A stretch of 40,644 bases of DNA, from the UHGV virus genome UHGV-0357162. One strand, 5' to 3'. This DNA comes from a virus. The notes beneath the pieces were generated by a model. The model was not told where the DNA came from and searched no databases. It saw only the letters and a program-made list of their open reading frames with translations. Below, piece by piece: positions 1-16,106 of this stretch (positions are counted from its first letter, which is position 1; the number at the start of each line of letters is the position of its first letter). The position numbers and the translations under genes are program-made.

Positions 1-575
1 ACCAACCCGGACTTGTTCCCCTTATAAAGTGGGAACGTGCCAAGGACCTTTCCGCCTAGTGTTAGTTGAAGTGTCGCCGCGTTGGTATTGTTCTGAACGG
101 GGAAAACGATAATCGGGGTTCGTAGCGTCCAGTCTGTACCTCCATTAACAAAAAACGTCGAGGGAAGTTCCAGCGTCAGTGCGTTTGCAGTGCCACCAGC
201 AACACCCGCAATATAATGACCGCTCTGAAGCTGCGCTATCTGTACGAAATAGTTTTCCGAACCACGCGTGGCAAAGTTAGCCACAACGTCATTAAGGGAC
301 CAACCTTTCGCGGTCGTTCCTTCCTGCCCACGAATGACTTTCAACACATCACCGCTTACCGATACCAGGTGACAAATCTCAAATGCAGACTCTTTATTAT
401 CGGTAAGCGTAATTTTTGCATAGACGCGTTGCCCGTTCGATTTATTTTCAAAATCGGCAGAAAGCAATTTTGCAAATTTAGCTCCCGTGCCCGGCATCAC
501 CGGAATATCAGTCTGAATCGTCGTGATATCGCCAGCCAGTGCTGAAACAACGTTATTGCCAAATCCAAGAATCAT
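1..575 (-). CDS. putative tail fibre / host-specificity protein, N-terminal part (partial; continues past window start)
   Basis: Minus-strand frame open from ATG at 573-575 to the window edge; N-terminus MILGFGNNVVSALAGDITTIQ; ATGA stop/start overlap with the upstream gene; sits after the J-like and I-position genes. Confidence 0.4.
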   Translation of the reverse strand, partial: MILGFGNNVVSALAGDITTIQTDIPVMPGTGAKFAKLLSADFENKSNGQRVYAKITLTDNKESAFEICHLVSVSGDVLKVIRGQEGTTAKGWSLNDVVANFATRGSENYFVQIAQLQSGHYIAGVAGGTANALTLELPSTFFVNGGTDWTLRTPIIVFPVQNNTNAATLQLTLGGKVLGTFPLYKGNKSGL

Positions 576-2450: not shown

Positions 2451-3197
2451 TTATTTTGCCTGTTTCATTTTTTCCACCCTCTCAAGCATTCTTTTTACAT
2501 TTGATGGAGGATAGTTAAATTCATCGCCGTCTCCAAAAGAAATTTTTATAGGCTTCATTTTCATAACCAACTCTTTCAGAACTGCTTTACCAATTTCAGT
2601 TTTTGGCACTATAAAACCATTTCCATACAAGCATGATTTATAAGTTTTATAATATTCACCATTAATCAAAATTGGTGGATATTCTAATGGGCCATCAATT
2701 TGCACTGAATTATCGCAAAATCCATTACCTTTAGATTTTGAAGCAATAAAAATAGCTATTGTTCCATCATCGCCATACATCAGGAATCTATTTTTACTAA
2801 CACCTTCCAATGGAGGTAATATTATCAGTGCACCATCAATATACCATTCAGCGTAATTCTCTGATTCATTGATTATGTTCTCATTAATTTCATTTAAAGA
2901 TGAATATTCCCTGAATGCATTAGAATACCATTGTCGAACACATGATTCTGTTTTGCACTTCTCTCTTTCATTCCACAAGTCTGAAACAATTTTTCTAAAA
3001 GCTTTCTTATCAGTGCTCTCTAACTTTACTTTTTGATATAAAGAATTTAATTTATCATCAAGTTCAGATAATTCACTGTTGTTGCAAATTAACTTTTCAG
3101 AATATGATTTAGCTTTCGAGCAATCAAAAGATACTGCATTCGCAGTTCCTATTTGTAATAAAAAGGTAAACACTACAAATAATTTTAACTTAGACAT
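2451..3197 (-). CDS. secreted DUF1311/LprI-like protein (moron)
   Basis: Signal peptide MSKLKLFVVFTFLLQIGTANA; Cys-spaced motif FDCSKAKSYSEKLICNNSELSELDDKLNSLYQKV ... WYSNAFREY typical of the DUF1311 (lysozyme inhibitor LprI N-terminal) fold; GGAG RBS; markedly AT-rich relative to neighbours. Confidence 0.55.
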   Translation of the reverse strand: MSKLKLFVVFTFLLQIGTANAVSFDCSKAKSYSEKLICNNSELSELDDKLNSLYQKVKLESTDKKAFRKIVSDLWNEREKCKTESCVRQWYSNAFREYSSLNEINENIINESENYAEWYIDGALIILPPLEGVSKNRFLMYGDDGTIAIFIASKSKGNGFCDNSVQIDGPLEYPPILINGEYYKTYKSCLYGNGFIVPKTEIGKAVLKELVMKMKPIKISFGDGDEFNYPPSNVKRMLERVEKMKQAK

Positions 3198-7158: not shown

Positions 7159-7806
7159 TTATGCTGATTTCTTGTTTACAGGCTTAGTTTCTTGCTCCGG
7201 TGTGACGGGAACGCGATCACCTGGTGTTCCAGCACAGAAAATGGCTTTGGCGCGGCGCAAAATCTCTTTGTCATTTTCCTCATCGCCAGCTAATGCCATG
7301 CAAACAGCGTCTTTAAGCGATTGCCTGATGTTCAGGCTTTGAATGGCCTTCCTTTGCTCCTCAAGTTCGCTATCGGCTTGCTTAGTTTGCCTGGTGGGTT
7401 GCTGTAGGCGTTCCAAGATTCCTTTAATGCCCATATCGCATATTGCACTTATCAGTTGTTCCTTATCTTCTGTGGACGCTCTTTTCAATAACTCGTTAAC
7501 TAGCTCGTTTGTAATATCGGGAGAAGGCTGCGCTGTTTGATTTGATAGAGAACCTTCTTTGGCGGTGGGTTCCTCACCATAAGCGAGCCAATTTAAGCTC
7601 ACTTGTTCTTTATCTGAGATAAGACAAGCTATTTTAAAAGAAGGCTCTGTTCCTTTATGAATGTAGTTGTTTAAGGTTGAAGGGGGGATTCCCCAATCAC
7701 TCGCAGCAGTTCTGACACTACGGTTACCTATCAGCTTTACTAAACGCTCTCTGAAACTTTCTTTTCCCTGGTCGACAAAAGAAAAAGCATCATCATTTCT
7801 AGTCAT
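7159..7806 (-). CDS. prophage repressor (Mu c position), HTH DNA-binding protein
   Basis: 215 aa, transcribed divergently from the ner-like gene; N-terminal helix-turn-helix-like region SVRTAASDWGIPPSTLNNYIHKG. Confidence 0.55.
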   Translation of the reverse strand: MTRNDDAFSFVDQGKESFRERLVKLIGNRSVRTAASDWGIPPSTLNNYIHKGTEPSFKIACLISDKEQVSLNWLAYGEEPTAKEGSLSNQTAQPSPDITNELVNELLKRASTEDKEQLISAICDMGIKGILERLQQPTRQTKQADSELEEQRKAIQSLNIRQSLKDAVCMALAGDEENDKEILRRAKAIFCAGTPGDRVPVTPEQETKPVNKKSA

Positions 7807-8225: not shown

Positions 8226-10267
8226 TGTTTTATTCAGCCAATGAGCTGGCCGGTCTTCCTGGTTTGCCCGGTACAGTTCAGGGGGTGCGCTGGACGCTCA
8301 ATCGGATCACAGAGACGCACCCAGAATGGAAGCGCAAGCGCGAAGGCACCAAAGCATTCGAGTATCACATCGACTGCCTGCCCGCTGAAGCGCAGAAAGT
8401 TTTACGTAAGCGCCTGACTCATCAGGTCCTGGAAGATGCACAACTGCCCGCCGTAGTTGAGCAGAAAGCAGTTAAAAACGTCGCCGTTCGCGATGAACTG
8501 GAGGTGATGGTCAAATGCCCGGAGCTGGCATTACGCGAAGTCCAGTCACTGACCGACAAGCAAAAGGCCATCGCTGATGCGCGGATATTGCTGGCTACTG
8601 AAGTGCATAAGCTGCGCGAGTATGCCGGAATGACCAGGAAGGCCGCTTTAAAGCACATCGTTGATGGTGTGCGCATGGGGGCGTTACCTGACCGCATTAT
8701 CGAAGCAGCGAATACTGCAAATGCACGTCAGGGAAAGCGAACCGGTGTCAGCACCGGCAGCCTGGATAGCTGGTACTCCAGCTGGGTGATGGCGCGCGGT
8801 GATGCCAATCAGTTACTGGCGTTACTGGCTCCCGGTCATCATAAGGGAACACCGTGGGAGCAGGTCTGGTGGTTGAGCGATTTCTTTATGTTCTATCGCT
8901 CATGGAAGCGCCCGACTGTTGAATATGCGTATCGTGAGTTTTCAGCCTGGTGGCATGAAAAACACGCGAATGATGCGGGAATGCTGGCGGCACTGCCTTC
9001 AGTTCACGCAGTAAGACGGGTGTTAAGCAGCGTCCCGGTGATTGTTAAAGAGCGTTTCCGCTCCACCGGTTCAGCCTGGCGTTCGCTCAATCCCTTTGTG
9101 CGGCGCGACTGGACATCATTACCGGTTAATGCGGTATGGGTCGGGGATGGTCACTGTATGAAAATGACCGCGTTTAACCCCCTGACCGGCAATATTTTCC
9201 GGCCAGAAGTGACGCTGGTTATGGATGCGGGGCAACGCTTTGTTGTGGGCTGGTCACTGTCCCTGTCGGAGAACGTGATAGCCGTTGCTGATGCGTTACG
9301 TTACGGCATGGCGCAGCACGGGATACCGCTGATTTATTACTCCGATAACGGGGGCGGTGAAAAAAACCGGGTGCTTGATGCCGATATTACCGGGATTCTG
9401 CCCCGGCTGGGTGTGGAACATCACACGGGGATACCAGGTAACCCGCAGGGGCGCGGGGTGATTGAACGGGCAAACAAAGGAATACCCAAAGACGTGGCTC
9501 TGAGTTTCCAGACGTACTGCGCAAGGGATGCAGACAAGGAAACCGTAATGATGCAGCAACGGATTATGCAGTCAGCCATTAAGGCCACCCACAAAGGGAA
9601 AGAACTGACAAAACGGCAGGTTAAGGCGAGGGATGAAATCCCCACCTTTGAGCAACTGCTGGCAGCCATAGAGCTGGAGGTCAGACGCTATAACAACCGG
9701 CCACACAGCAGCCTACCCCGCAAAGAGGATGGCGAATATTACAGCCCGGCAGCGTATCGCCGGAAACTGATAAAAGAGCAGAATGTTGAAATTGATTTCC
9801 TGTCGCCGGAAGAACTGCATGAAATGTTCAGACCGGAAGTGACGCGCAAAACATTTCGCGGGGAAATTCAGTTATTCAACAATATTTATTACTCATATGA
9901 TCTGGCCGCAGAGCACGGGAATGAAGTCAGGGTCAGTTACGATATTCATGATGCAAACAGCGTCATTGTCCGGCGGGCTGATGGCTCTTATATCTGCGAT
10001 GCCATCTGGAACGGTAACAAGGTTGATGCCTTCGCTAAACCAGTTATCGAACAAAAACTGGAGAAACGCGTCAGGGGCCGCATTGCACGGGCTACGCAGA
10101 AAATCGAAGAGGCTAAACGCGAGCTTACCCCGGCTATTACGCAGAAGCCTGACTTTAATCTGGGATATGGACTGGAGCGCCCGGAGAAAAAGGAAAAAGA
10201 AGAACTTTATTTATTCGCATCTGAACGCGAGCGCAATTTAAAGAAAAACGGCACAAACAACCGTTAA
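8225..10267 (+). CDS. A: Mu A-type DDE transposase
   Basis: 680 aa; N-terminus ANELAGLPGLPGTVQGV resembles the MuA DNA-binding N-terminus; DDE-core-like VWVGDGHCMKM; followed by the MuB-like ATPase. Confidence 0.9.
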   Translation: MFYSANELAGLPGLPGTVQGVRWTLNRITETHPEWKRKREGTKAFEYHIDCLPAEAQKVLRKRLTHQVLEDAQLPAVVEQKAVKNVAVRDELEVMVKCPELALREVQSLTDKQKAIADARILLATEVHKLREYAGMTRKAALKHIVDGVRMGALPDRIIEAANTANARQGKRTGVSTGSLDSWYSSWVMARGDANQLLALLAPGHHKGTPWEQVWWLSDFFMFYRSWKRPTVEYAYREFSAWWHEKHANDAGMLAALPSVHAVRRVLSSVPVIVKERFRSTGSAWRSLNPFVRRDWTSLPVNAVWVGDGHCMKMTAFNPLTGNIFRPEVTLVMDAGQRFVVGWSLSLSENVIAVADALRYGMAQHGIPLIYYSDNGGGEKNRVLDADITGILPRLGVEHHTGIPGNPQGRGVIERANKGIPKDVALSFQTYCARDADKETVMMQQRIMQSAIKATHKGKELTKRQVKARDEIPTFEQLLAAIELEVRRYNNRPHSSLPRKEDGEYYSPAAYRRKLIKEQNVEIDFLSPEELHEMFRPEVTRKTFRGEIQLFNNIYYSYDLAAEHGNEVRVSYDIHDANSVIVRRADGSYICDAIWNGNKVDAFAKPVIEQKLEKRVRGRIARATQKIEEAKRELTPAITQKPDFNLGYGLERPEKKEKEELYLFASERERNLKKNGTNNR

Positions 10268-10285: not shown

Positions 10286-11179
10286 ATGAGTTTAATTACG
10301 CAATTAAATGACGTAATGGCCCGTCGCGGCTATACGCAGACCCACGTCGCCCGTGCTATTGGTCGTAGCAGCGCCGTTATCAACCAGTATTTACAGGGTA
10401 AATATCAGGGCGATATGGCTGATATTGAAGAACGCATTTCTGCCTTTGTGACCCGTGAGCGGGAAAAGGAAAACAGCCGCCGTATTAAAGCGAAATTTGT
10501 TGCCACCGGTATGGCTGCCAAAGGACTGGAAGTGCTGGCCTATGCTCACCTGGAATGTGAAATCTGCGTACTGTATGGCGCGGCAGGTCTTGGCAAAACA
10601 ATGATTCTGCGTGAATACGCCGCCAGAAACCGGGATGCGGTCCTGATTGAAGCTGACCCGGGCTATACAGCCAGAACACTGCTTGAGGAGCTGTGCCGCC
10701 AGCTGGGGGTAAAAGTTCGCGGCAATATCCACGAACTGATTGATGCATGTGTGCGAGAACTGCGTGATTCCGGTCGCCTGCTGATGGTGGACGAGGCTGA
10801 ACTGCTCCCCTATCGCGCACTGGAGGTTCTGCGCCGTCTGCATGACAAAGCGGGTATCGGGATTGTCCTGGCGGGTATGCCACGCCTTCTGATTAACCTC
10901 AAGGGACGTCGCGGTGAGTTCGCCCAGTTATACAGCCGTGTGGCGCTGGCGCTTAACCTGGGCGATACGCTGGCGCAGGAAGATTTTAACCAGATAGCCA
11001 CCGGGCTGATGCCGGAAGCAGCAGAACCGGAAATCAGCGAGGCGCTTTATACACGTTCGCTGGGTAATGCCCGCCGCCTGTTCAAACTGGCGCGTGGTGT
11101 GTACCGGATTTGTGATATCAGCGATGCACCGGTCAGTGTGCAGGCCATTGATAAATTCGCAGAAATGTTAATTCACTGA
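10286..11179 (+). CDS. B: Mu B-type AAA+ ATPase target DNA activator
   Basis: 297 aa; Walker A LYGAAGLGKT and Walker B LLMVDEAE; N-terminal HTH; immediately follows the transposase. Confidence 0.85.
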   Translation: MSLITQLNDVMARRGYTQTHVARAIGRSSAVINQYLQGKYQGDMADIEERISAFVTREREKENSRRIKAKFVATGMAAKGLEVLAYAHLECEICVLYGAAGLGKTMILREYAARNRDAVLIEADPGYTARTLLEELCRQLGVKVRGNIHELIDACVRELRDSGRLLMVDEAELLPYRALEVLRRLHDKAGIGIVLAGMPRLLINLKGRRGEFAQLYSRVALALNLGDTLAQEDFNQIATGLMPEAAEPEISEALYTRSLGNARRLFKLARGVYRICDISDAPVSVQAIDKFAEMLIH

Positions 11180-11675: not shown

Positions 11676-12320
11676 ATGACGACTGAAAATAAAGTTAAGC
11701 AATACACGAAAACTCAAGCGCCTGAAGGTTACTGGGTGGATGCCCGTGGCGTAATGACACCTGAAAGCCTTATCAAAGATATTGACCGCGACCGCGAGCA
11801 GCTGGTCGGTGAGATTGTGGAACTGGTGATTGCTGCCTCCGCCTCACTGCGTGAACTGAAACTACGTGCCTTTGGTGATATCCAGGCATTTATTGACCTG
11901 TCGGCGGAGAAATACGGCGCAGTGAAAGGTGGCAAAAAAGGCAATATCACGCTTTACAGCTTTGACGGGCGTTACAAGATTCAGCGCGCCATGCAGGACC
12001 GTATCGCGTTTGATGAACGCATTCAGACCGCGAAGTCGCTGATTGATGACTGTCTGGCTGACTGGACGGAAGGTGCGCGCCCTGAAATTAAAGCCATCAT
12101 TAGCGAGGCATTCAGCACGGACAAGGAAGGCAACATTAACACCGGGCGCGTTCTGGCCCTGCGTCGTCTGGAAATTGAGGACGAACGCTGGAATAACGCT
12201 ATGACGCTGATTGGTGAAGCCGTCCAGGTGATTGGCAGCAAGAGCTATATTCGTGTGTATGAGCGCGTCGGTGATTCTGATGAATACCGCGCAATCCCGC
12301 TTGATATTGCAGGGGTTTAA
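11676..12320 (+). CDS. Mu-like semi-early protein (DUF3164-like)
   Basis: 214 aa; size and position typical of DUF3164 proteins of Mu-like prophages; family assignment by recollection only. Confidence 0.45.
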   Translation: MTTENKVKQYTKTQAPEGYWVDARGVMTPESLIKDIDRDREQLVGEIVELVIAASASLRELKLRAFGDIQAFIDLSAEKYGAVKGGKKGNITLYSFDGRYKIQRAMQDRIAFDERIQTAKSLIDDCLADWTEGARPEIKAIISEAFSTDKEGNINTGRVLALRRLEIEDERWNNAMTLIGEAVQVIGSKSYIRVYERVGDSDEYRAIPLDIAGV

Positions 12321-12321
12321 C

Positions 12322-12555
12322 ATGCATCAGGATATCAAAGAGTACAGGGCCGGAAATAGTTGCGCGGCGTATTCGCTGGGCGCGTCCAGAGCAGAACAAC
12401 GCGGCGATTATGACGAGGCAGAAAAACTGTGGCGCAAGGCAGCGCAAAGCCCGTGTAGCACCCTGCGCCGCATCTGGGCTGAACATCGTGCGGAGTTCTG
12501 CGCTAACGCTCACCTGAAGGGCTGGAGGCCACGCCATGAATGCGAAGAACTTTAA
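12322..12555 (+). CDS. hypothetical small helical protein
   Basis: 77 aa from ATG 12322 (MHQDIKEYRAGNS...GDYDEAEKLWRKAAQS); the longer track ORF 12232..12555 overlaps the previous gene. Confidence 0.4.
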   Translation: MHQDIKEYRAGNSCAAYSLGASRAEQRGDYDEAEKLWRKAAQSPCSTLRRIWAEHRAEFCANAHLKGWRPRHECEEL

Positions 12556-12727
12556 TAAGCAGTATCCGGTAGGGACTCGCTTCATGCACACTGCACATCC
12601 GGCGTTGCGTGGTGGTCGTGTGGTGAAAACCGTTTCACCTGCCAGAGATTTTAAATGTGGTTGTGTGGTTGAAATTAATGTCGAGCCTTATTTCGTTAAA
12701 GTCGAAACACTGAAAGCAGCGCATTAA
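12536..12727 (+). CDS. hypothetical protein
   Basis: 63 aa ORF overlapping the upstream stop. Confidence 0.35.
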   Translation: MNAKNFNKQYPVGTRFMHTAHPALRGGRVVKTVSPARDFKCGCVVEINVEPYFVKVETLKAAH

Positions 12728-12756
12728 TTTAATTCAATTTTAATTGTTATTTAAAA

Positions 12757-12790
12757 CAGGCGTAAACCCGCCAGGGCTGGCTTACGCCTG
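12757..12790 (-). terminator. stem-loop terminator for the antisense gene 12831..13091
   Basis: CAGGCGTAA ... TTACGCCTG outer stem with inner GCCAG/CTGGC stem; T-rich run follows on the minus strand. Confidence 0.45.
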
Positions 12791-12830
12791 AATCAAGAGG
12801 ATTTATATATGAGAGATAAAATCTGGGGCT

Positions 12831-13091
12831 TTATTTATCCTCCGAAGGGGTTTGCAACGGTGTCTGCATCATTATCTCAATCTGTTTTAAATGAGAGAGA
12901 ACGTGTGAAGAGGCCACTGTCTCACCAATATCAGAAAGTCGTTTTACAGCCTGCTGTAACTGGTAAGAAAGAATAGATAAATCGAGAGAGCCCTGGATTT
13001 GCAGGGCTCTGACGGTAGCCAGCCACACGTAATGTGATGCCAGAACTTTTTCATCGGTTGGTGTGAAATCAGGAGTTTCGTTTTTATTCAT
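12831..13091 (-). CDS. hypothetical small protein encoded antisense to the early operon (moron)
   Basis: 86 aa from MNKNETPDF with AAGAGG RBS; AT-rich flanks; divergent from 13177..13893. Confidence 0.45.
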   Translation of the reverse strand: MNKNETPDFTPTDEKVLASHYVWLATVRALQIQGSLDLSILSYQLQQAVKRLSDIGETVASSHVLSHLKQIEIMMQTPLQTPSEDK

Positions 13092-13176
13092 AAAACCTCT
13101 TATTACTTCAACTGAAAAAGAAAACATCACATTACTTAATTTTCTTGCATGAAAAAATGATCGAAAACAACAGGTT

Positions 13177-13893
13177 ATGAACATGAAAGATAAATACATT
13201 GCCAAAATTAAAAAGCTGTTACGCCTTGCAAGAGGAACATCAAGCCCGGAAGAAGCCGCTAACGCTATTGCAAAAGTCCAGGCTTATATGCGCCAGCATG
13301 GCATCAGCGAAAACGACGCGGAATTGTTCGACATTCAGGAAGCTGCCAGCGCAGGTGCGCCGAGTGATGCCAGTACACCGCCGCGTTATATGCACATCCT
13401 GTGTGACCTGGTCTGTAAAGCCTTCGGTGTCGAGTGTTACATCTCCGGCGAATACCGGGCTTCTGGTTCACTCAAACGTTACGTGCGTTTTTATGGTCCT
13501 GACAGTCGCCCGGAAATTGCGGCATACGCGTTTGATGTGCTTTCCCGTCAGATGATGGCTGAACGCAAGAAATATCAGGATAAACACTGCAAACGTTGCG
13601 GCCCGTCCACGCGGGTGGCCCGTGGCGACCAGTTCTGCGAAGGCTGGGTCTTTGGTGCCCGTGATGTCATTGCGGTGTATGACGTCTCCCCGGAAGAAAA
13701 AAGCCGCCTTGAGCTTTACAGAAAGAACCTGCACAGCACTAAGGGACTGCGCGACGGGGATATGCGCACAGCTAAAGCGTGTCGGGGTGCAGAGTTTGCC
13801 GCTACTGCCGGTTTTATCGCCGGGAAAAACGCCAGGCTGCATCAGGGGGTTAATGGTCAGAGCAACAGACCGCTGGCACTGGGGAGGGGGTAA
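13177..13893 (+). CDS. DUF2786-like protein with Cys-rich zinc-finger-like region
   Basis: N-terminus IAKIKKLLRLARGTSSPEEAANAIAKVQAYM matches the DUF2786 pattern; CKRCGP ... C motif; 238 aa. Confidence 0.5.
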   Translation: MNMKDKYIAKIKKLLRLARGTSSPEEAANAIAKVQAYMRQHGISENDAELFDIQEAASAGAPSDASTPPRYMHILCDLVCKAFGVECYISGEYRASGSLKRYVRFYGPDSRPEIAAYAFDVLSRQMMAERKKYQDKHCKRCGPSTRVARGDQFCEGWVFGARDVIAVYDVSPEEKSRLELYRKNLHSTKGLRDGDMRTAKACRGAEFAATAGFIAGKNARLHQGVNGQSNRPLALGRG

Positions 13894-14529: not shown

Positions 14530-14533
14530 AACG

Positions 14534-14710
14534 ATGAAAAACCGTAAAGCAAAACGACTTCTTTTACAGCGACCTGTGCGTGTAGTGGAGCTGGTTATCA
14601 GCAACCATAAGATAGCGGTACTCCATCCATTTGGTCAGGTGGCTTTTGCCGCAAAGCGTAAGCCTACTGCGTCACAGAACAGGCGGAATAAAGGGTACGC
14701 AGTACGATGA
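14534..14710 (+). CDS. small basic protein, tandem copy 1 (58 aa)
   Basis: MKNRKAKRLLLQRPVRVVELVISNHKIAVLHPFGQVAFAAKRKPTASQNRRNKGYAVR; AGGGGAA RBS; first 22 nt near-identical to copy 2. Confidence 0.3.
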   Translation: MKNRKAKRLLLQRPVRVVELVISNHKIAVLHPFGQVAFAAKRKPTASQNRRNKGYAVR

Positions 14711-14883
14711 AAAACCGTAAGGCAAAAATTCTGTTAGCTCGCAGAAACGGCTTTGATGTCTGGCGATGGTTGAGGATTAGTAACAGACGAGTGAGATTGA
14801 CGGGGTGTTGCGGGGTGATGGGGCACAGTTGTTGCAAAAAGCCCAGCGCGGCGCAAAACCGCAGGAAAAATCACGGTATGTAA
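14707..14883 (+). CDS. small basic Cys-rich protein, tandem copy 2 (58 aa)
   Basis: MKNRKAKILLARRNGFDVWRWLRISNRRVRLTGCCGVMGHSCCKKPSAAQNRRKNHGM; ATGA overlap with copy 1. Confidence 0.3.
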   Translation: MKNRKAKILLARRNGFDVWRWLRISNRRVRLTGCCGVMGHSCCKKPSAAQNRRKNHGM

Positions 14884-15306: not shown

Positions 15307-15411
15307 GGCCCGGCATGAAATTTTCTGAATCACGGAGCAACAACACGATGAAAGCCATCACCGTAACTCGACGTTCCTGATTTCGCGGGTTGTTTAAACA
15401 GTAATCAAATG

Positions 15412-15457
15412 CAGACCAAAACATGTGTTTTGGTCTGCCAAAAGTGATGTTTTGGTC
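15412..15457. promoter_or_regulatory. operator-like array: perfect 26-bp palindrome CAGACCAAAACATGTGTTTTGGTCTG plus a third TGTTTTGGTC half-site 11 bp downstream
   Basis: Perfect dyad 15412..15437 and direct repeat 15448..15457, spaced about two helical turns; overlaps the start of the next ORF. Confidence 0.4.
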
Positions 15458-15739
15458 ATTATGAAGATTGAACAAATCGGAATGGCAGCTTTCAGGCAAC
15501 AGGCTGAAAGCGGTGGCGTGGATGAGTTCGTCGTGCAGCGGTTCGGTGGTGTGTATCACCTCTTCGCTGTGAATCGCCACGCCGGGGTGTCCTATTTTCT
15601 ACAGGAACGCCGTGGCGATTACAAGACGTGGCTGTCTCTTGATCGTGCCGCCACGTTCCTGTCAGGAATTGGCGTTTCACGTTTTACCGTGCGTTTTGAG
15701 GATAACAAACATGCTGAAAAAGATGATCGGAGCCATTAA
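15425..15739 (+). CDS. hypothetical protein (start uncertain: GTG 15425 or ATG 15461)
   Basis: Track ORF; the 5' end overlaps the palindrome, so ATG 15461 (MKIEQIG) may be the real start. Confidence 0.35.
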   Translation: MFWSAKSDVLVIMKIEQIGMAAFRQQAESGGVDEFVVQRFGGVYHLFAVNRHAGVSYFLQERRGDYKTWLSLDRAATFLSGIGVSRFTVRFEDNKHAEKDDRSH

Positions 15740-16106
15740 AGCCGGTCAGGCGTATCTGGGGTGGGATGATGTCCTTTATCGCCAGACGCTGGCCCGCCTG
15801 ACCGGTAAAACCAGCACCACACGCTGCAACCTCGATGAACTGCGCATCATCCGGGAATACATGCACGAACAGGGATTTCCGCGCAAGGCCCCCGCCGGTA
15901 AAGGTCGCCGCCCTCGTGTTGCAATGAGCAGAAAATCGGTATTATCCAAAATTGAAGCGTTGCTGGCTGATGCCGGTCGTTCCTGGGCGTATGCAGAAGG
16001 ACTGGCATCTCACATGTATAAGCAACATGTGATCGAATGGCTGACGGATGAACAGCTTTTTGGGGTGATGGTGGCGCTGGTTAAAGATTCAAGGAGACGT
16101 AAATGA
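15711..16106 (+). CDS. gemA: GemA-like (Mu gp16 family, DUF1018) protein
   Basis: Start MLKKMIGAIKAGQAYLGWDDVLYRQTLARLTGKTS matches the conserved N-terminal pattern of GemA/gp16-family proteins; the longer track ORF starts at 15612. Confidence 0.55.
   Translation: MLKKMIGAIKAGQAYLGWDDVLYRQTLARLTGKTSTTRCNLDELRIIREYMHEQGFPRKAPAGKGRRPRVAMSRKSVLSKIEALLADAGRSWAYAEGLASHMYKQHVIEWLTDEQLFGVMVALVKDSRRRK

What the first reader, a model, noticed from the sequence alone, without database searches (positions are those of the whole stretch)
12757..13893. Antisense small gene with its own terminator, divergent from a DUF2786-like zinc-finger gene
Inside the otherwise unidirectional early operon, an 86-aa gene (12831..13091) is encoded on the opposite strand with a strong RBS and a stem-loop terminator (12757..12790). 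It shares an AT-rich 85-bp control region with the divergently transcribed 238-aa DUF2786-like Cys-rich protein. This is a classic autonomous moron, a candidate regulator/effector pair or anti-defence module not predicted by the Mu paradigm.
Basis: partly seen in the sequence, partly recalled or inferred. Interest (0 to 1): 0.55.

Follow-up and report, generated by a model that had tools for sequence, protein, structure and literature searches.

The report
Backward-facing small gene in Mu-like prophage
A small gene that points the "wrong way" inside the early operon of a Mu-like E. coli prophage is real: it belongs to an undescribed family of about 70-90-residue helical proteins found only in Mu-like phages and always oriented against the lytic genes, so it is probably made in the dormant prophage, but it is not a functional pair with its DUF2786 neighbour.

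Summary
There is an 86-aa ORF on the minus strand (12831-13091) with an AAGAGG Shine-Dalgarno. A stable hairpin plus U4 lies 41 nt past its stop (12757-12790). An 85-bp, 73% A+T spacer separates it from a divergent DUF2786+DUF7168 gene.

The ORF is a genuine gene. A full HMMER scan and a profile search found about 120 clusters of 67-91-aa proteins with invariant motifs (TPxDEKxLA, GETGAA). dN/dS is 0.14-0.40. AF2 gives a three-helix bundle at pLDDT 89. Pfam, PHROGs, NCBIfam and PADLOC hold no model for it.

In all 14 distinct contexts examined the gene sits in a Mu-like prophage. It opposes both neighbouring lytic genes in 13, and in L023 it lies beside the repressor gene on the same strand. 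Its position varies: ner-A interval, semi-essential region, late region.

Head-to-head synteny with DUF2786 holds in 5 of 6 enterobacterial contexts. DUF2786 occurs without the intact gene in 56 of 58 E. coli prophages, and two of four examined carry a decayed relic of it. The hairpin is a repeated backbone element, not private to this gene. No sigma-70 promoter was found. The "zinc finger" is not conserved.

Closest known: Olg1/Sie1, the lysogen-expressed exclusion protein of Pseudomonas phage Fc02. It shares the niche and shows weak sequence similarity. The most likely role is a lysogen-phase accessory, possibly exclusion, and that is unproven.

The parts
12831..13091 (-). Small gene: 86 aa, an acidic three-helix protein. 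It belongs to an unnamed family restricted to Mu-like prophages. The core is residues ~8-76. The last 8 codons and the stop lie in sequence shared with relatives that lack the gene.
   Evidence: ORF. Distant homologues of 71-84 aa at 41-51% identity. Profile search found 120 clusters. Alignments A3 and A4 show invariant or near-invariant D13 E14 K15 L17 G56 E57. The family HMM gives 81 bits. dN/dS is 0.14-0.40. AF2 gives pLDDT 88.7 with helices 11-33, 38-54 and 58-76.
13096..13101 (-). Shine-Dalgarno AAGAGG, 4 nt upstream of the ATG of the small gene.
   Evidence: Read from the sequence. Orthologues have GAGG/GGAG 6-7 nt upstream.
12753..12790 (-). Terminator-like hairpin (12757-12790) followed by UUUU (12753-12756) on the minus-strand transcript, 41 nt past the stop codon. 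It is a repeated backbone element.
   Evidence: -26.1 kcal/mol, z = -5.3 on the minus strand, against -19.2, z = -2.6 on the plus strand. Eleven copies in relatives: ten are 2.9-9.3 kcal/mol more stable on this strand, and the L030 copy is equal on both strands. Inner-stem changes are compensatory. The element also occurs in prophages without the gene.
13092..13176 (.). 85-bp divergent spacer, 73% A+T, between the small gene and the DUF2786 gene. The presumed promoter region is unresolved.
   Evidence: Composition. No sigma-70-like site on the minus strand. On the plus strand there is only a weak extended -10 (TGAAAAAAT, -10 hexamer 13153-13158). No operator-like repeats are shared with the c-ner region.
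13177..13893 (+). DUF2786+DUF7168 gene (238 aa; PGAP start at 13183). It is a core early gene of enterobacterial Mu-like prophages, phrog_421. Function unknown.
12809..12976 (+). Sense-strand ORF (55 aa) with SD AAGAGG at 12795-12800. Its first ~20 codons are the conserved N-terminus of phrog_7741 proteins. The rest runs antisense through the small gene.
   Evidence: tblastn of the 181-aa protein of L002 against the window gives 12/20 identities. phrog_7741 positions 1-21 match. The same arrangement and W-x5-P-x-G-[FYW]-A motif occur in L010, L012, L014 and L030.
12987..13010 (.). 9-bp perfect inverted repeat inside the small gene, at codons R-A-L and Q-G-S.
   Evidence: Repeat. It is kept in L010, L014 and L030 through paired changes (synonymous in L014; one of the two in L030 replaces A by T), and is absent from L012.

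Best explanation
The 86-aa ORF is a genuine accessory gene of Mu-like transposable prophages. It encodes a small acidic three-helix-bundle protein of a conserved family that no database describes.

It forms a separate leftward unit, in the repressor direction, embedded antisense in the rightward early operon. It has its own ribosome-binding site and ends at a conserved hairpin with a short U tract.

Inferred, not shown: it is transcribed when the early promoter Pe is repressed, that is, in the lysogen. It would then be silenced by converging early transcription after induction. The protein would act by binding another protein rather than DNA.

The most likely role is a lysogen-phase function such as superinfection exclusion or immunity support. 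This rests on analogy, and possibly distant homology, with Olg1/Sie1 of Pseudomonas phage Fc02.

The head-to-head arrangement with DUF2786 is lineage-specific synteny in enterobacterial Mu-like phages. It is probably ancestral there and was later lost in most E. coli prophages. It is not an obligate functional pair.

Sub-probabilities: real conserved gene 0.95. Autonomous, lysogen-expressed unit 0.6. Exclusion-type function 0.3.
For: Real gene:
- Five distant homologues of similar length and 120 clusters by profile search.
- Invariant motifs and dN/dS of 0.14-0.40 with saturated dS.
- A confident AF2 model.

Restricted to Mu-like phages and locked in orientation:
- There are 14 distinct contexts: window/L001, L010, L012, L014, L030, L031, L008/L016/L017, L024, L018/19, L020/21, L023, L009, L007 and L025.
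- All contexts carry Mu-type genes (transposase, MuB-like ATPase, ner, Gam, GemA, Mor or Mu-type head genes).
- In 13 of the 14 the gene opposes both flanking lytic genes. In L023 it lies upstream of, and co-directional with, the repressor gene.
- In the twin prophage it is the only gene besides the repressor on that strand.

Accessory and foreign in composition: 2 of 58 E. coli prophages. 57% A+T against 46-47%.

3' end: a hairpin more stable on this strand in ten of eleven copies (equal on both strands in L030), with covariation.

Ancestral synteny and loss: a 5'-truncated relic of the gene abuts DUF2786 in L002 and L006.

Analogue:
- Fc02 Olg1 is a 7.9-kDa soluble protein encoded on the repressor strand, antisense to early genes. 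It is transcribed in the lysogen and excludes phages when expressed (PMC9936078).
- The family HMM picks the olg1 ORF as the top hit in phage B3.
- Olg1 orthologues score 10-13 bits. The best unrelated ORF among 4219 scores 6.4. Only 1-5 of 20000 shuffles reach the real scores.
- In a B3-like prophage (L023), a bona fide family member sits on the repressor strand just upstream of the repressor.
Against: - No promoter could be identified upstream, and no expression data were available.
- The U tract after the hairpin is weak in the orthologues.
- The hairpin also occurs where no leftward gene is present.
- Homology to Olg1 is not established: hhalign gives probability 9% over 28 columns, and Olg1 lacks the GETGAA motif.
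- Structure searches against the PDB and BFVD gave nothing below E = 1.
- The gene is dispensable: it is missing in intact form from 56 of 58 related E. coli prophages.
Confidence: 0.6

Rival explanations
1. The small protein and the DUF2786/DUF7168 protein form a functional two-gene module, such as regulator/effector, toxin/antitoxin-like or anti-defence, controlled from the shared 85-bp region.
For: Head-to-head adjacency with a 66-93-bp gap in 5 of 6 enterobacterial contexts: window, L010, L012, L014 and L030. A relic of the small gene still abuts DUF2786 in L002 and L006.
Against: DUF2786 occurs without the intact small gene in 56 of 58 E. coli prophages, and its family is far larger (at least 226 clusters). 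The small gene has other neighbours in 9 contexts, including a Salmonella prophage where DUF2786 lies 1.7 kb away. The small protein is acidic, with three long helices and no HTH. There are no PADLOC hits. The upstream regions of the orthologues are not conserved with the window's.
Confidence: 0.1
2. What matters is the act of antisense transcription, or the RNA, rather than the protein. A leftward transcript colliding with early transcription, or pairing with early mRNA, would tune expression of downstream early genes up to mor.
For: Orientation is conserved while position is not, across 14 contexts. The hairpin has strand-specific stability. A conserved hairpin lies inside the coding region and is maintained by paired changes. 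The transcript would be antisense to a translated sense ORF start.
Against: Strong protein-level constraint: invariant residues across 117 sequences from beta- and gammaproteobacterial phages, dN/dS of 0.14-0.40, and a conserved RBS. An RNA-only role would not preserve a 70-aa fold. The two roles could coexist.
Confidence: 0.15
3. The protein modulates the phage's own lysis-lysogeny or transposition machinery rather than excluding other phages. For example, it could stabilise the repressor against ClpXP, or bind MuA or MuB.
For: The family is confined to transposable phages of very different hosts, which suggests a phage-encoded or universally conserved target. In most non-enterobacterial members the gene lies within the ner-A-repressor control region.
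Against: It is dispensable in most E. coli relatives. It also sits in the semi-essential or late region in other lineages. There is no direct evidence.
Confidence: 0.13
4. The antisense ORF is a chance or shadow ORF opposite a degenerate forward gene, and only the plus strand is functional here.
For: The plus strand carries an SD, an ATG and 20 conserved codons of a phrog_7741 gene. The ORF's last 8 codons lie in that shared sequence. Close homologues are almost absent: 2 clusters, and none in the phage or plasmid collections.
Against: The family evidence is decisive. Past codon ~20 the forward ORF is conserved only where it mirrors the GET motif.
Confidence: 0.02

Closest known systems
Olg1 (Sie1) of Pseudomonas Mu-like phage Fc02 (Beetrevirus; PMC9936078)
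   Same: Both are small soluble acidic proteins: 74 aa (7.9 kDa) for Olg1 against 70-90 aa here. Both are encoded on the repressor strand of a Mu-like phage, antisense to early-operon genes. Olg1 is transcribed in the lysogen. There is weak similarity over helix 1-loop-helix 2 (family HMM 10-13 bits). A true family member lies just upstream of the repressor, on its strand, in a B3-like prophage; in Fc02 olg1 lies further upstream on that strand, overlapping early gene 10.
   Different: Homology is not established: hhalign gives probability 9%, and Olg1 has no GETGAA motif. Olg1 is co-transcribed with the repressor from pC1 and fully overlaps early gene 10. The window's gene lies ~5 kb from the repressor, in its own gap, and overlaps only a short sense ORF. 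Exclusion activity has not been tested for this family.
Morons of temperate phages (Juhala/Hendrix concept; my own knowledge)
   Same: An extra gene present in some but not all related phages, with deviant base composition. It is flanked by a putative promoter region and a terminator-like hairpin, and is oriented so that it can be expressed from the repressed prophage.
   Different: This is not a one-off cargo gene. It is a family conserved across Mu-like phages of beta- and gammaproteobacteria. The promoter is unidentified. The 'terminator' is a repeated backbone element.
Lysogen-expressed exclusion genes such as lambda rexAB/sieB and P22 sieA/sieB (my own knowledge)
   Same: Genes transcribed in the lysogenic direction, embedded in or beside lytic operons, and dispensable for growth.
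   Different: There is no sequence or fold relation, and no membrane segments. The function here is unknown.
DUF2786 (PF10979) + DUF7168 (PF23771), phrog_421
   Same: The neighbouring 238-aa gene is a clear member of both Pfam families and of phrog_421.
   Different: These families have no known function. The literature search found only incidental mentions. The fold search was uninformative.

Membership tests
Unnamed small-protein family of Mu-like prophages (alignment A4) | Full-length match of a ~70-aa core carrying the motifs [FY]TPxDEKxLA, LVxxL..G.LD and (I/V)GETGAA. | tested here: met
   81 bits against the family HMM. Motifs are present, with V for G in GETVAS.
Unnamed small-protein family of Mu-like prophages (alignment A4) | Located in a Mu-like transposable prophage and oriented against the flanking lytic genes. 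| tested here: met
   True of the window and of 12 of the 13 other contexts; in L023 the gene instead lies upstream of, and co-directional with, the repressor gene.
Moron (autonomous transcription unit in a prophage) | Present in some but absent from closely related phages. | tested here: met
   Intact in 2 of 58 E. coli prophages that share the DUF2786 allele. The slot variants are shown.
Moron (autonomous transcription unit in a prophage) | Its own promoter. | tested here: inconclusive
   No sigma-70-like site on the minus strand within 240 nt upstream. The region is 73% A+T.
Moron (autonomous transcription unit in a prophage) | Its own terminator. | tested here: inconclusive
   A stable strand-biased hairpin plus U4. 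However, the element is repeated and also occurs without the gene, and the orthologues have weak U tracts.
Moron (autonomous transcription unit in a prophage) | Base composition different from its surroundings. | tested here: met
   57% A+T against 46% for DUF2786 and 47% for the window.
Moron (autonomous transcription unit in a prophage) | Expressed from the repressed prophage. | not testable with these tools
   No transcriptome data could be reached.
Olg1/Sie1 (Fc02) | Significant sequence homology. | tested here: inconclusive
   HMM scores of 10-13 bits. Empirical p is about 5e-5 to 2.5e-4 against shuffles, and the score exceeds all 4219 control ORFs. But hhalign gives probability 9%, E 0.0036.
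Olg1/Sie1 (Fc02) | Encoded on the repressor strand, antisense to early genes. | tested here: met
   for the window. and PMC9936078 for Fc02.
Olg1/Sie1 (Fc02) | Part of the pC1 transcript that also encodes the repressor. | tested here: not met
   The window's gene is ~5 kb from the repressor (7159-7806, minus strand), with ner, A, B and other early genes between them.
Olg1/Sie1 (Fc02) | Superinfection exclusion activity. | not testable with these tools
   This needs an experiment.
DUF2786/DUF7168 | Pfam matches above the gathering score. | tested here: met
   PF10979 at 47.1 bits (cut-off 23.9) and PF23771 at 102.1 bits (cut-off 25.5).
   C137 and C140 are not conserved in 67 homologues. Only C154 is nearly invariant.
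Obligate two-gene module (toxin-antitoxin or regulator-effector type) | Each partner reliably accompanies the other. | tested here: not met
   The small gene is next to DUF2786 in 5 of 14 contexts. DUF2786 is next to the intact small gene in 2 of 58 E. coli prophages (and the context calls).

The most novel reading that the evidence does not exclude
The family, with Olg1/Sie1 as a divergent branch, is a pan-Mu-like-phage lysogeny-phase factor. Its expression would be hard-wired to the repressed state purely by being placed antisense to whichever lytic operon it lands in. Convergent transcription would be the off-switch. This would explain why orientation is invariant while position drifts between the immunity region, the semi-essential region and the late region. 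The protein would act on a target common to transposable phages, for example by blocking a superinfecting Mu-type genome.
Probability: 0.25. Interest if true: 0.6.

Novelty: new member of a known kind. Interest (0 to 1): 0.45.

Why it matters
Mu-like prophages are textbook examples of strictly unidirectional early operons. This work shows a small conserved protein family, absent from Pfam, PHROGs, NCBIfam and PADLOC, that is specific to these phages and in every context examined is oriented against the lytic genes around it. That gives a concrete candidate for a lysogen-phase function, such as exclusion or immunity support, in a group of phages where such functions are poorly mapped. It tentatively links enterobacterial prophages to the only experimentally studied example, Fc02 Olg1/Sie1. 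It also corrects annotation in two ways. Some PGAP 'hypothetical proteins' in this slot are shadow ORFs opposite decayed copies of the gene, and olg1-type ORFs are unannotated in several phage records. The practical stake is modest, because the function remains untested.

Tried and rejected
- Family libraries. Pfam, PHROGs, NCBIfam and PADLOC scans of the 86-aa protein found nothing usable. Pfam and PHROGs scans of all 117 family members likewise found nothing usable.
- Sequenced phages and plasmids. tblastn of the protein against sequenced phages and plasmids gave no match. tblastn of a core family member against the phage collection also gave none.
- Structure searches. Foldseek of the AF2 model against the PDB and BFVD gave no hit below E = 1. 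The afdb50 library was not available. A PDB sequence-profile search found nothing.
- RNA families. An Rfam scan of 12400-13400 returned only a chance miRNA hit below threshold.
- Promoter. The tool scan and my own relaxed sigma-70 scan found nothing on the minus strand. I inspected sigma-54-like GG/GC motifs in orthologue upstream regions by eye. Their spacing is one or more nt off consensus and they are absent from the window, so I rejected them.
- Operators. No operator-like sequence is shared between the c-ner region and the spacer; only A-tracts match.
- Comparator L004. The 47-aa 'homologue' P0002 turned out to be the same DNA carrying long-read indel errors, so it says nothing about selection.
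- Shadow-ORF hypothesis. I considered that the ORF is a shadow of a forward gene, and rejected it on the family evidence.
Full report
**Setting**

The window carries a Mu-like prophage. The minus strand holds the repressor at 7159-7806, and ner follows on the plus strand. The early operon then runs rightward:
- a MuB-like ATPase at 10286-11179;
- a DUF3164 gene at 11676-12320;
- an ANR-family gene;
- a 63-aa gene at 12536-12727 (phrog_5591);
- the slot in question;
- a DUF2786+DUF7168 gene at 13177-13893.

**Observation**

- The ORF runs from the ATG at 13091 to the TAA at 12831 on the minus strand.
- AAGAGG lies 4 nt upstream of the ATG.
- A hairpin at 12757-12790 is followed by UUUU on the minus-strand RNA.
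- An 85-bp spacer with 73% A+T separates the ORF from a divergent 238-aa DUF2786 gene.

The hairpin is significantly stable as minus-strand RNA: -26.1 kcal/mol, z = -5.3. As plus-strand RNA it is weaker: -19.2 kcal/mol, z = -2.6.

Two things were not confirmed. No sigma-70-like promoter lies on the minus strand within 240 nt upstream. The CxxC of the DUF2786 protein is not conserved among 67 homologues, so it is not a zinc finger.

**Is the ORF a gene?**

Word-indexed search found only near-identical copies. One of them (L004) is the same DNA with long-read indel errors. Exhaustive HMMER against 1.84 billion representatives found five homologues of 71-84 aa at 41-51% identity. A profile built from them recovered 120 clusters, nearly all of 67-91 aa.

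Further support:
- The alignment shows nearly invariant residues in three motifs: TPxDEKxLA, L..L..G.LD and GETGAA.
- Between enterobacterial orthologues dN/dS is 0.14-0.40, with saturated dS.
- AF2 with this alignment gives a confident three-helix bundle, pLDDT 88.7.
- By my count from the sequence the protein is acidic, with 10 D/E and 7 K/R.
- The family has no model in Pfam, PHROGs, NCBIfam or PADLOC.
- No member was found in sequenced phage or plasmid collections.
- There is no structural neighbour in the PDB or BFVD.

**Context across the family**

I examined 14 distinct genomic contexts. All are Mu-like transposable prophages, carrying genes such as Mu transposase, a MuB-like ATPase, ner, Gam, GemA, Mor or Mu-type head genes. 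In 13 of them the small gene opposes both neighbouring lytic genes.

Enterobacterial prophages with the gene head-to-head with DUF2786, gaps 66-93 bp:
- the window and its twin (E. coli);
- L010 and L030 (Salmonella);
- L012 (Enterobacter);
- L014 (Serratia).

Other positions:
- In another Salmonella prophage (L031) it lies beyond mor, 1.7 kb from DUF2786.
- In non-enterobacterial phages it lies between ner-proximal genes and transposase A (L008/L016/L017, L024, L007, L018/19, L020/21).
- In a B3-like prophage (L023) it lies directly upstream of, and co-directional with, the repressor.
- In L009 it lies in the semi-essential region.
- In L025 it lies between the lysis genes and DUF1804, in the late region.

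So orientation is conserved and position is not.

**The pair with DUF2786**

The same 58 of 5426 complete E. coli genomes carry both the DUF2786 allele and the hairpin. Only 2 of them carry the intact small gene. Relatives fill the slot in three ways:
- with nothing (L003);
- with a forward 181-aa phrog_7741 gene (L002, L005);
- with an annotated forward 60-aa ORF (L006).

The family HMM detects a 5'-truncated relic of the small gene on the opposite strand of that 60-aa ORF. It reads HGRLNLSILNSELRNFRHGLQERGEFVLAAVLNEHLLSIE and abuts the DUF2786 start in L002 and L006. I therefore read the small-gene/DUF2786 synteny as ancestral in enterobacterial Mu-like phages, followed by decay or loss in most E. 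coli lineages. DUF2786 is a core gene that does not need the small gene, and the small gene does not need DUF2786 elsewhere. An obligate functional pair is not supported.

**The hairpin**

It is not private to the gene. The same 30-nt element (GGCGTAAAC...GCTTACGCC on the early strand) occurs:
- twice in L002 and L005, flanking the 181-aa gene;
- three times in L010;
- in prophages without the small gene.

It nevertheless follows the small gene at about 30-55 nt in every enterobacterial orthologue located next to DUF2786. In ten of eleven copies it is 2.9-9.3 kcal/mol more stable as RNA of the strand antisense to the early operon, because G.U pairs on that strand become A.C on the other; in the L030 copy the two strands are equal. 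The inner stem covaries in L012, L014 and L030. This fits a leftward terminator or 3' stabiliser. Its presence without a leftward gene, and the weak U tracts in the orthologues, remain unexplained.

**Junction anatomy**

DNA identity between the window and the relatives that lack the gene runs through 12858 and resumes at about 13175-13179. The cassette therefore spans about 12859-13175.

The last 8 codons and the stop of the small gene lie in sequence that, on the plus strand, forms the SD, the ATG (12809) and the first ~17-20 codons of phrog_7741 genes. The same arrangement, a sense ORF start overlapping the 3' tail of the small gene, is seen in L010, L012, L014 and L030. There the sense peptide motif W-x5-P-x-G-[FYW]-A is conserved, with variation mostly at sense third positions. 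The antisense C-terminal tails are poorly conserved and end at different points. Why this 20-codon start is retained is unexplained.

**Closest known**

A literature search surfaced Ramirez-Sanchez et al. 2023 (PMC9936078). In the Pseudomonas Mu-like phage Fc02, strand-specific RNA-seq shows a lysogenic transcript from pC1 on the repressor strand. It encodes Olg1, a 7.9-kDa soluble protein, antisense to early gene 10 and ner. Plasmid-expressed Olg1 excludes superinfecting phages, and the authors renamed it Sie1.

I located the orthologous unannotated ORF in phage B3 at 9188-9412. It has the CCCCCG and the second ATG 25 nt downstream, as the paper describes. I also located it in Fc02 at 9959-10180 and in 43 Beetrevirus records.

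Evidence on homology points both ways.
- The family HMM selects exactly this ORF as the top hit in the B3 six-frame translation.
- Olg1 orthologues score 10-13 bits.
- Only 1-5 of 20000 composition-matched shuffles reach the real scores.
- The best unrelated ORF among 4219 six-frame ORFs scores 6.4 bits.
- hhalign gives only 9% probability over 28 columns.
- Olg1 lacks the GETGAA motif.

In a prophage syntenic with B3 (L023), the transposase, the ORF13-like and ORF15-like genes and the repressor are 31-41% identical to B3's. A bona fide family member lies on the repressor strand just upstream of the repressor. I treat Olg1 as a positional and functional analogue and a possible distant relative, not as an established homologue.

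**Mechanism**

Shown:
- a conserved protein-coding gene;
- orientation against the flanking lytic genes in all 14 contexts;
- accessory status;
- deviant composition;
- a strand-biased 3' hairpin.

Inferred:
- transcription from an unidentified promoter in or beyond the A+T-rich spacer when Pe is repressed;
- shut-off by convergent early transcription on induction;
- action by protein binding, since the protein is acidic with long helices and no HTH;
- a lysogen-phase role such as exclusion, by analogy with Olg1.

Rival readings are listed with their probabilities: a DUF2786 module, an RNA-level or interference-only role, a modulator of the phage's own switch or transposition, and a spurious ORF.

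**Verdict**

The finding is real. The 'autonomous moron' reading is largely right. The 'pair with a zinc-finger DUF2786 gene' reading is not. It is a new member of a known kind: a lysogenic-direction accessory gene of a temperate phage. One feature appears not to have been described: a family specific to Mu-like phages whose orientation is fixed while its position is not. Function is untested, so interest is moderate.

Noticed in passing
window 12757-12790; L002 4032-4060 and 4656-4685; L005 2532-2561 and 3157-3186; L010 5308-5337, 6457-6486 and a variant upstream of the 188-aa gene: The hairpin is a repeated, same-orientation boundary element that precedes successive cassettes in the semi-essential early region of enterobacterial Mu-like prophages. 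In nearly every copy scored it is more stable on the strand antisense to the early operon, and it covaries. It also occurs where no leftward gene exists, so its function is unclear: leftward terminator, RNA stabiliser or recombination boundary.
   Followed up: partly
window 12795-12976 (+): A sense-strand SD, an ATG and a 55-aa ORF whose first ~20 residues (MRDKIWGFIYPPKGFAT) match the N-terminus of phrog_7741 proteins. The motif is conserved in Salmonella, Enterobacter and Serratia relatives even though the ORF then runs antisense through the small gene. It may be kept so that the early mRNA stays translated (protection from Rho?), or by recurrent recombination.
   Followed up: partly
L006 2583-2765 (+) / 2644-2814 (-); L002 4768-4938 (-): The PGAP 'hypothetical protein' of 60 aa (WP_128497447.1) lies opposite a 5'-truncated relic of the small gene (family HMM positions 30-69, 13 bits). 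The annotated forward ORF is probably a shadow ORF.
   Followed up: partly
window 12987-12995 / 13002-13010: A perfect 9-bp inverted repeat inside the small gene, at codons R-A-L and Q-G-S. It is maintained in L010, L014 and L030 by paired codon changes on both arms (AGA/TCT to CGA/TCG, GCC/GGC to ACC/GGT, CTG/CAG to TTG/CAA), and is absent from L012. This suggests a selected nucleic-acid structure within the coding sequence.
   Followed up: partly
L026 (phage B3, AF232233) 9188-9412 (+); L028 (JBD67) 301-522 (+): The olg1/sie1 ORF described for Fc02 has no annotated CDS of its own in B3, and JBD67 lists no feature there. It is conserved at 78-100% identity in 43 Beetrevirus records.
   Followed up: yes
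window 14531-14554 and 14704-14727; ORFs 14534-14710 and 14707-14883 (+): Two adjacent 58-aa ORFs begin with the same 24-nt sequence (ACGATGAAAAACCGTAARGCAAAA; MKNRKAK...) at 173-bp spacing. This looks like a tandem duplication of a small early gene that has since diverged.
   Followed up: no
window 15411-15457: Nested inverted repeats of 13 nt (perfect) and 20 nt (85%), GCAGACCAAAACA/TGTTTTGGTCTGC, about 150 bp upstream of the ORF at 15612-16106; its identity was not checked. They could be a terminator or an operator.
   Followed up: no
L022 (NZ_CM135183.1 2835000-2878000): The twin Mu-like prophage is inserted inside a lambdoid prophage remnant. ninE, ybcN, ybcK, emrE and replication genes O/P lie immediately beyond its repressor end.
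   Followed up: no
L010, L012, L014 upstream of the small gene: The orthologues share a motif, TC(G/A)GC(T/A)GGC(C/A)..., palindromic TGGCA-N4-TGCCA in L010, between DUF2786 and the small gene. It is absent from the window's spacer and may be an operator for an unknown regulator.
   Followed up: no
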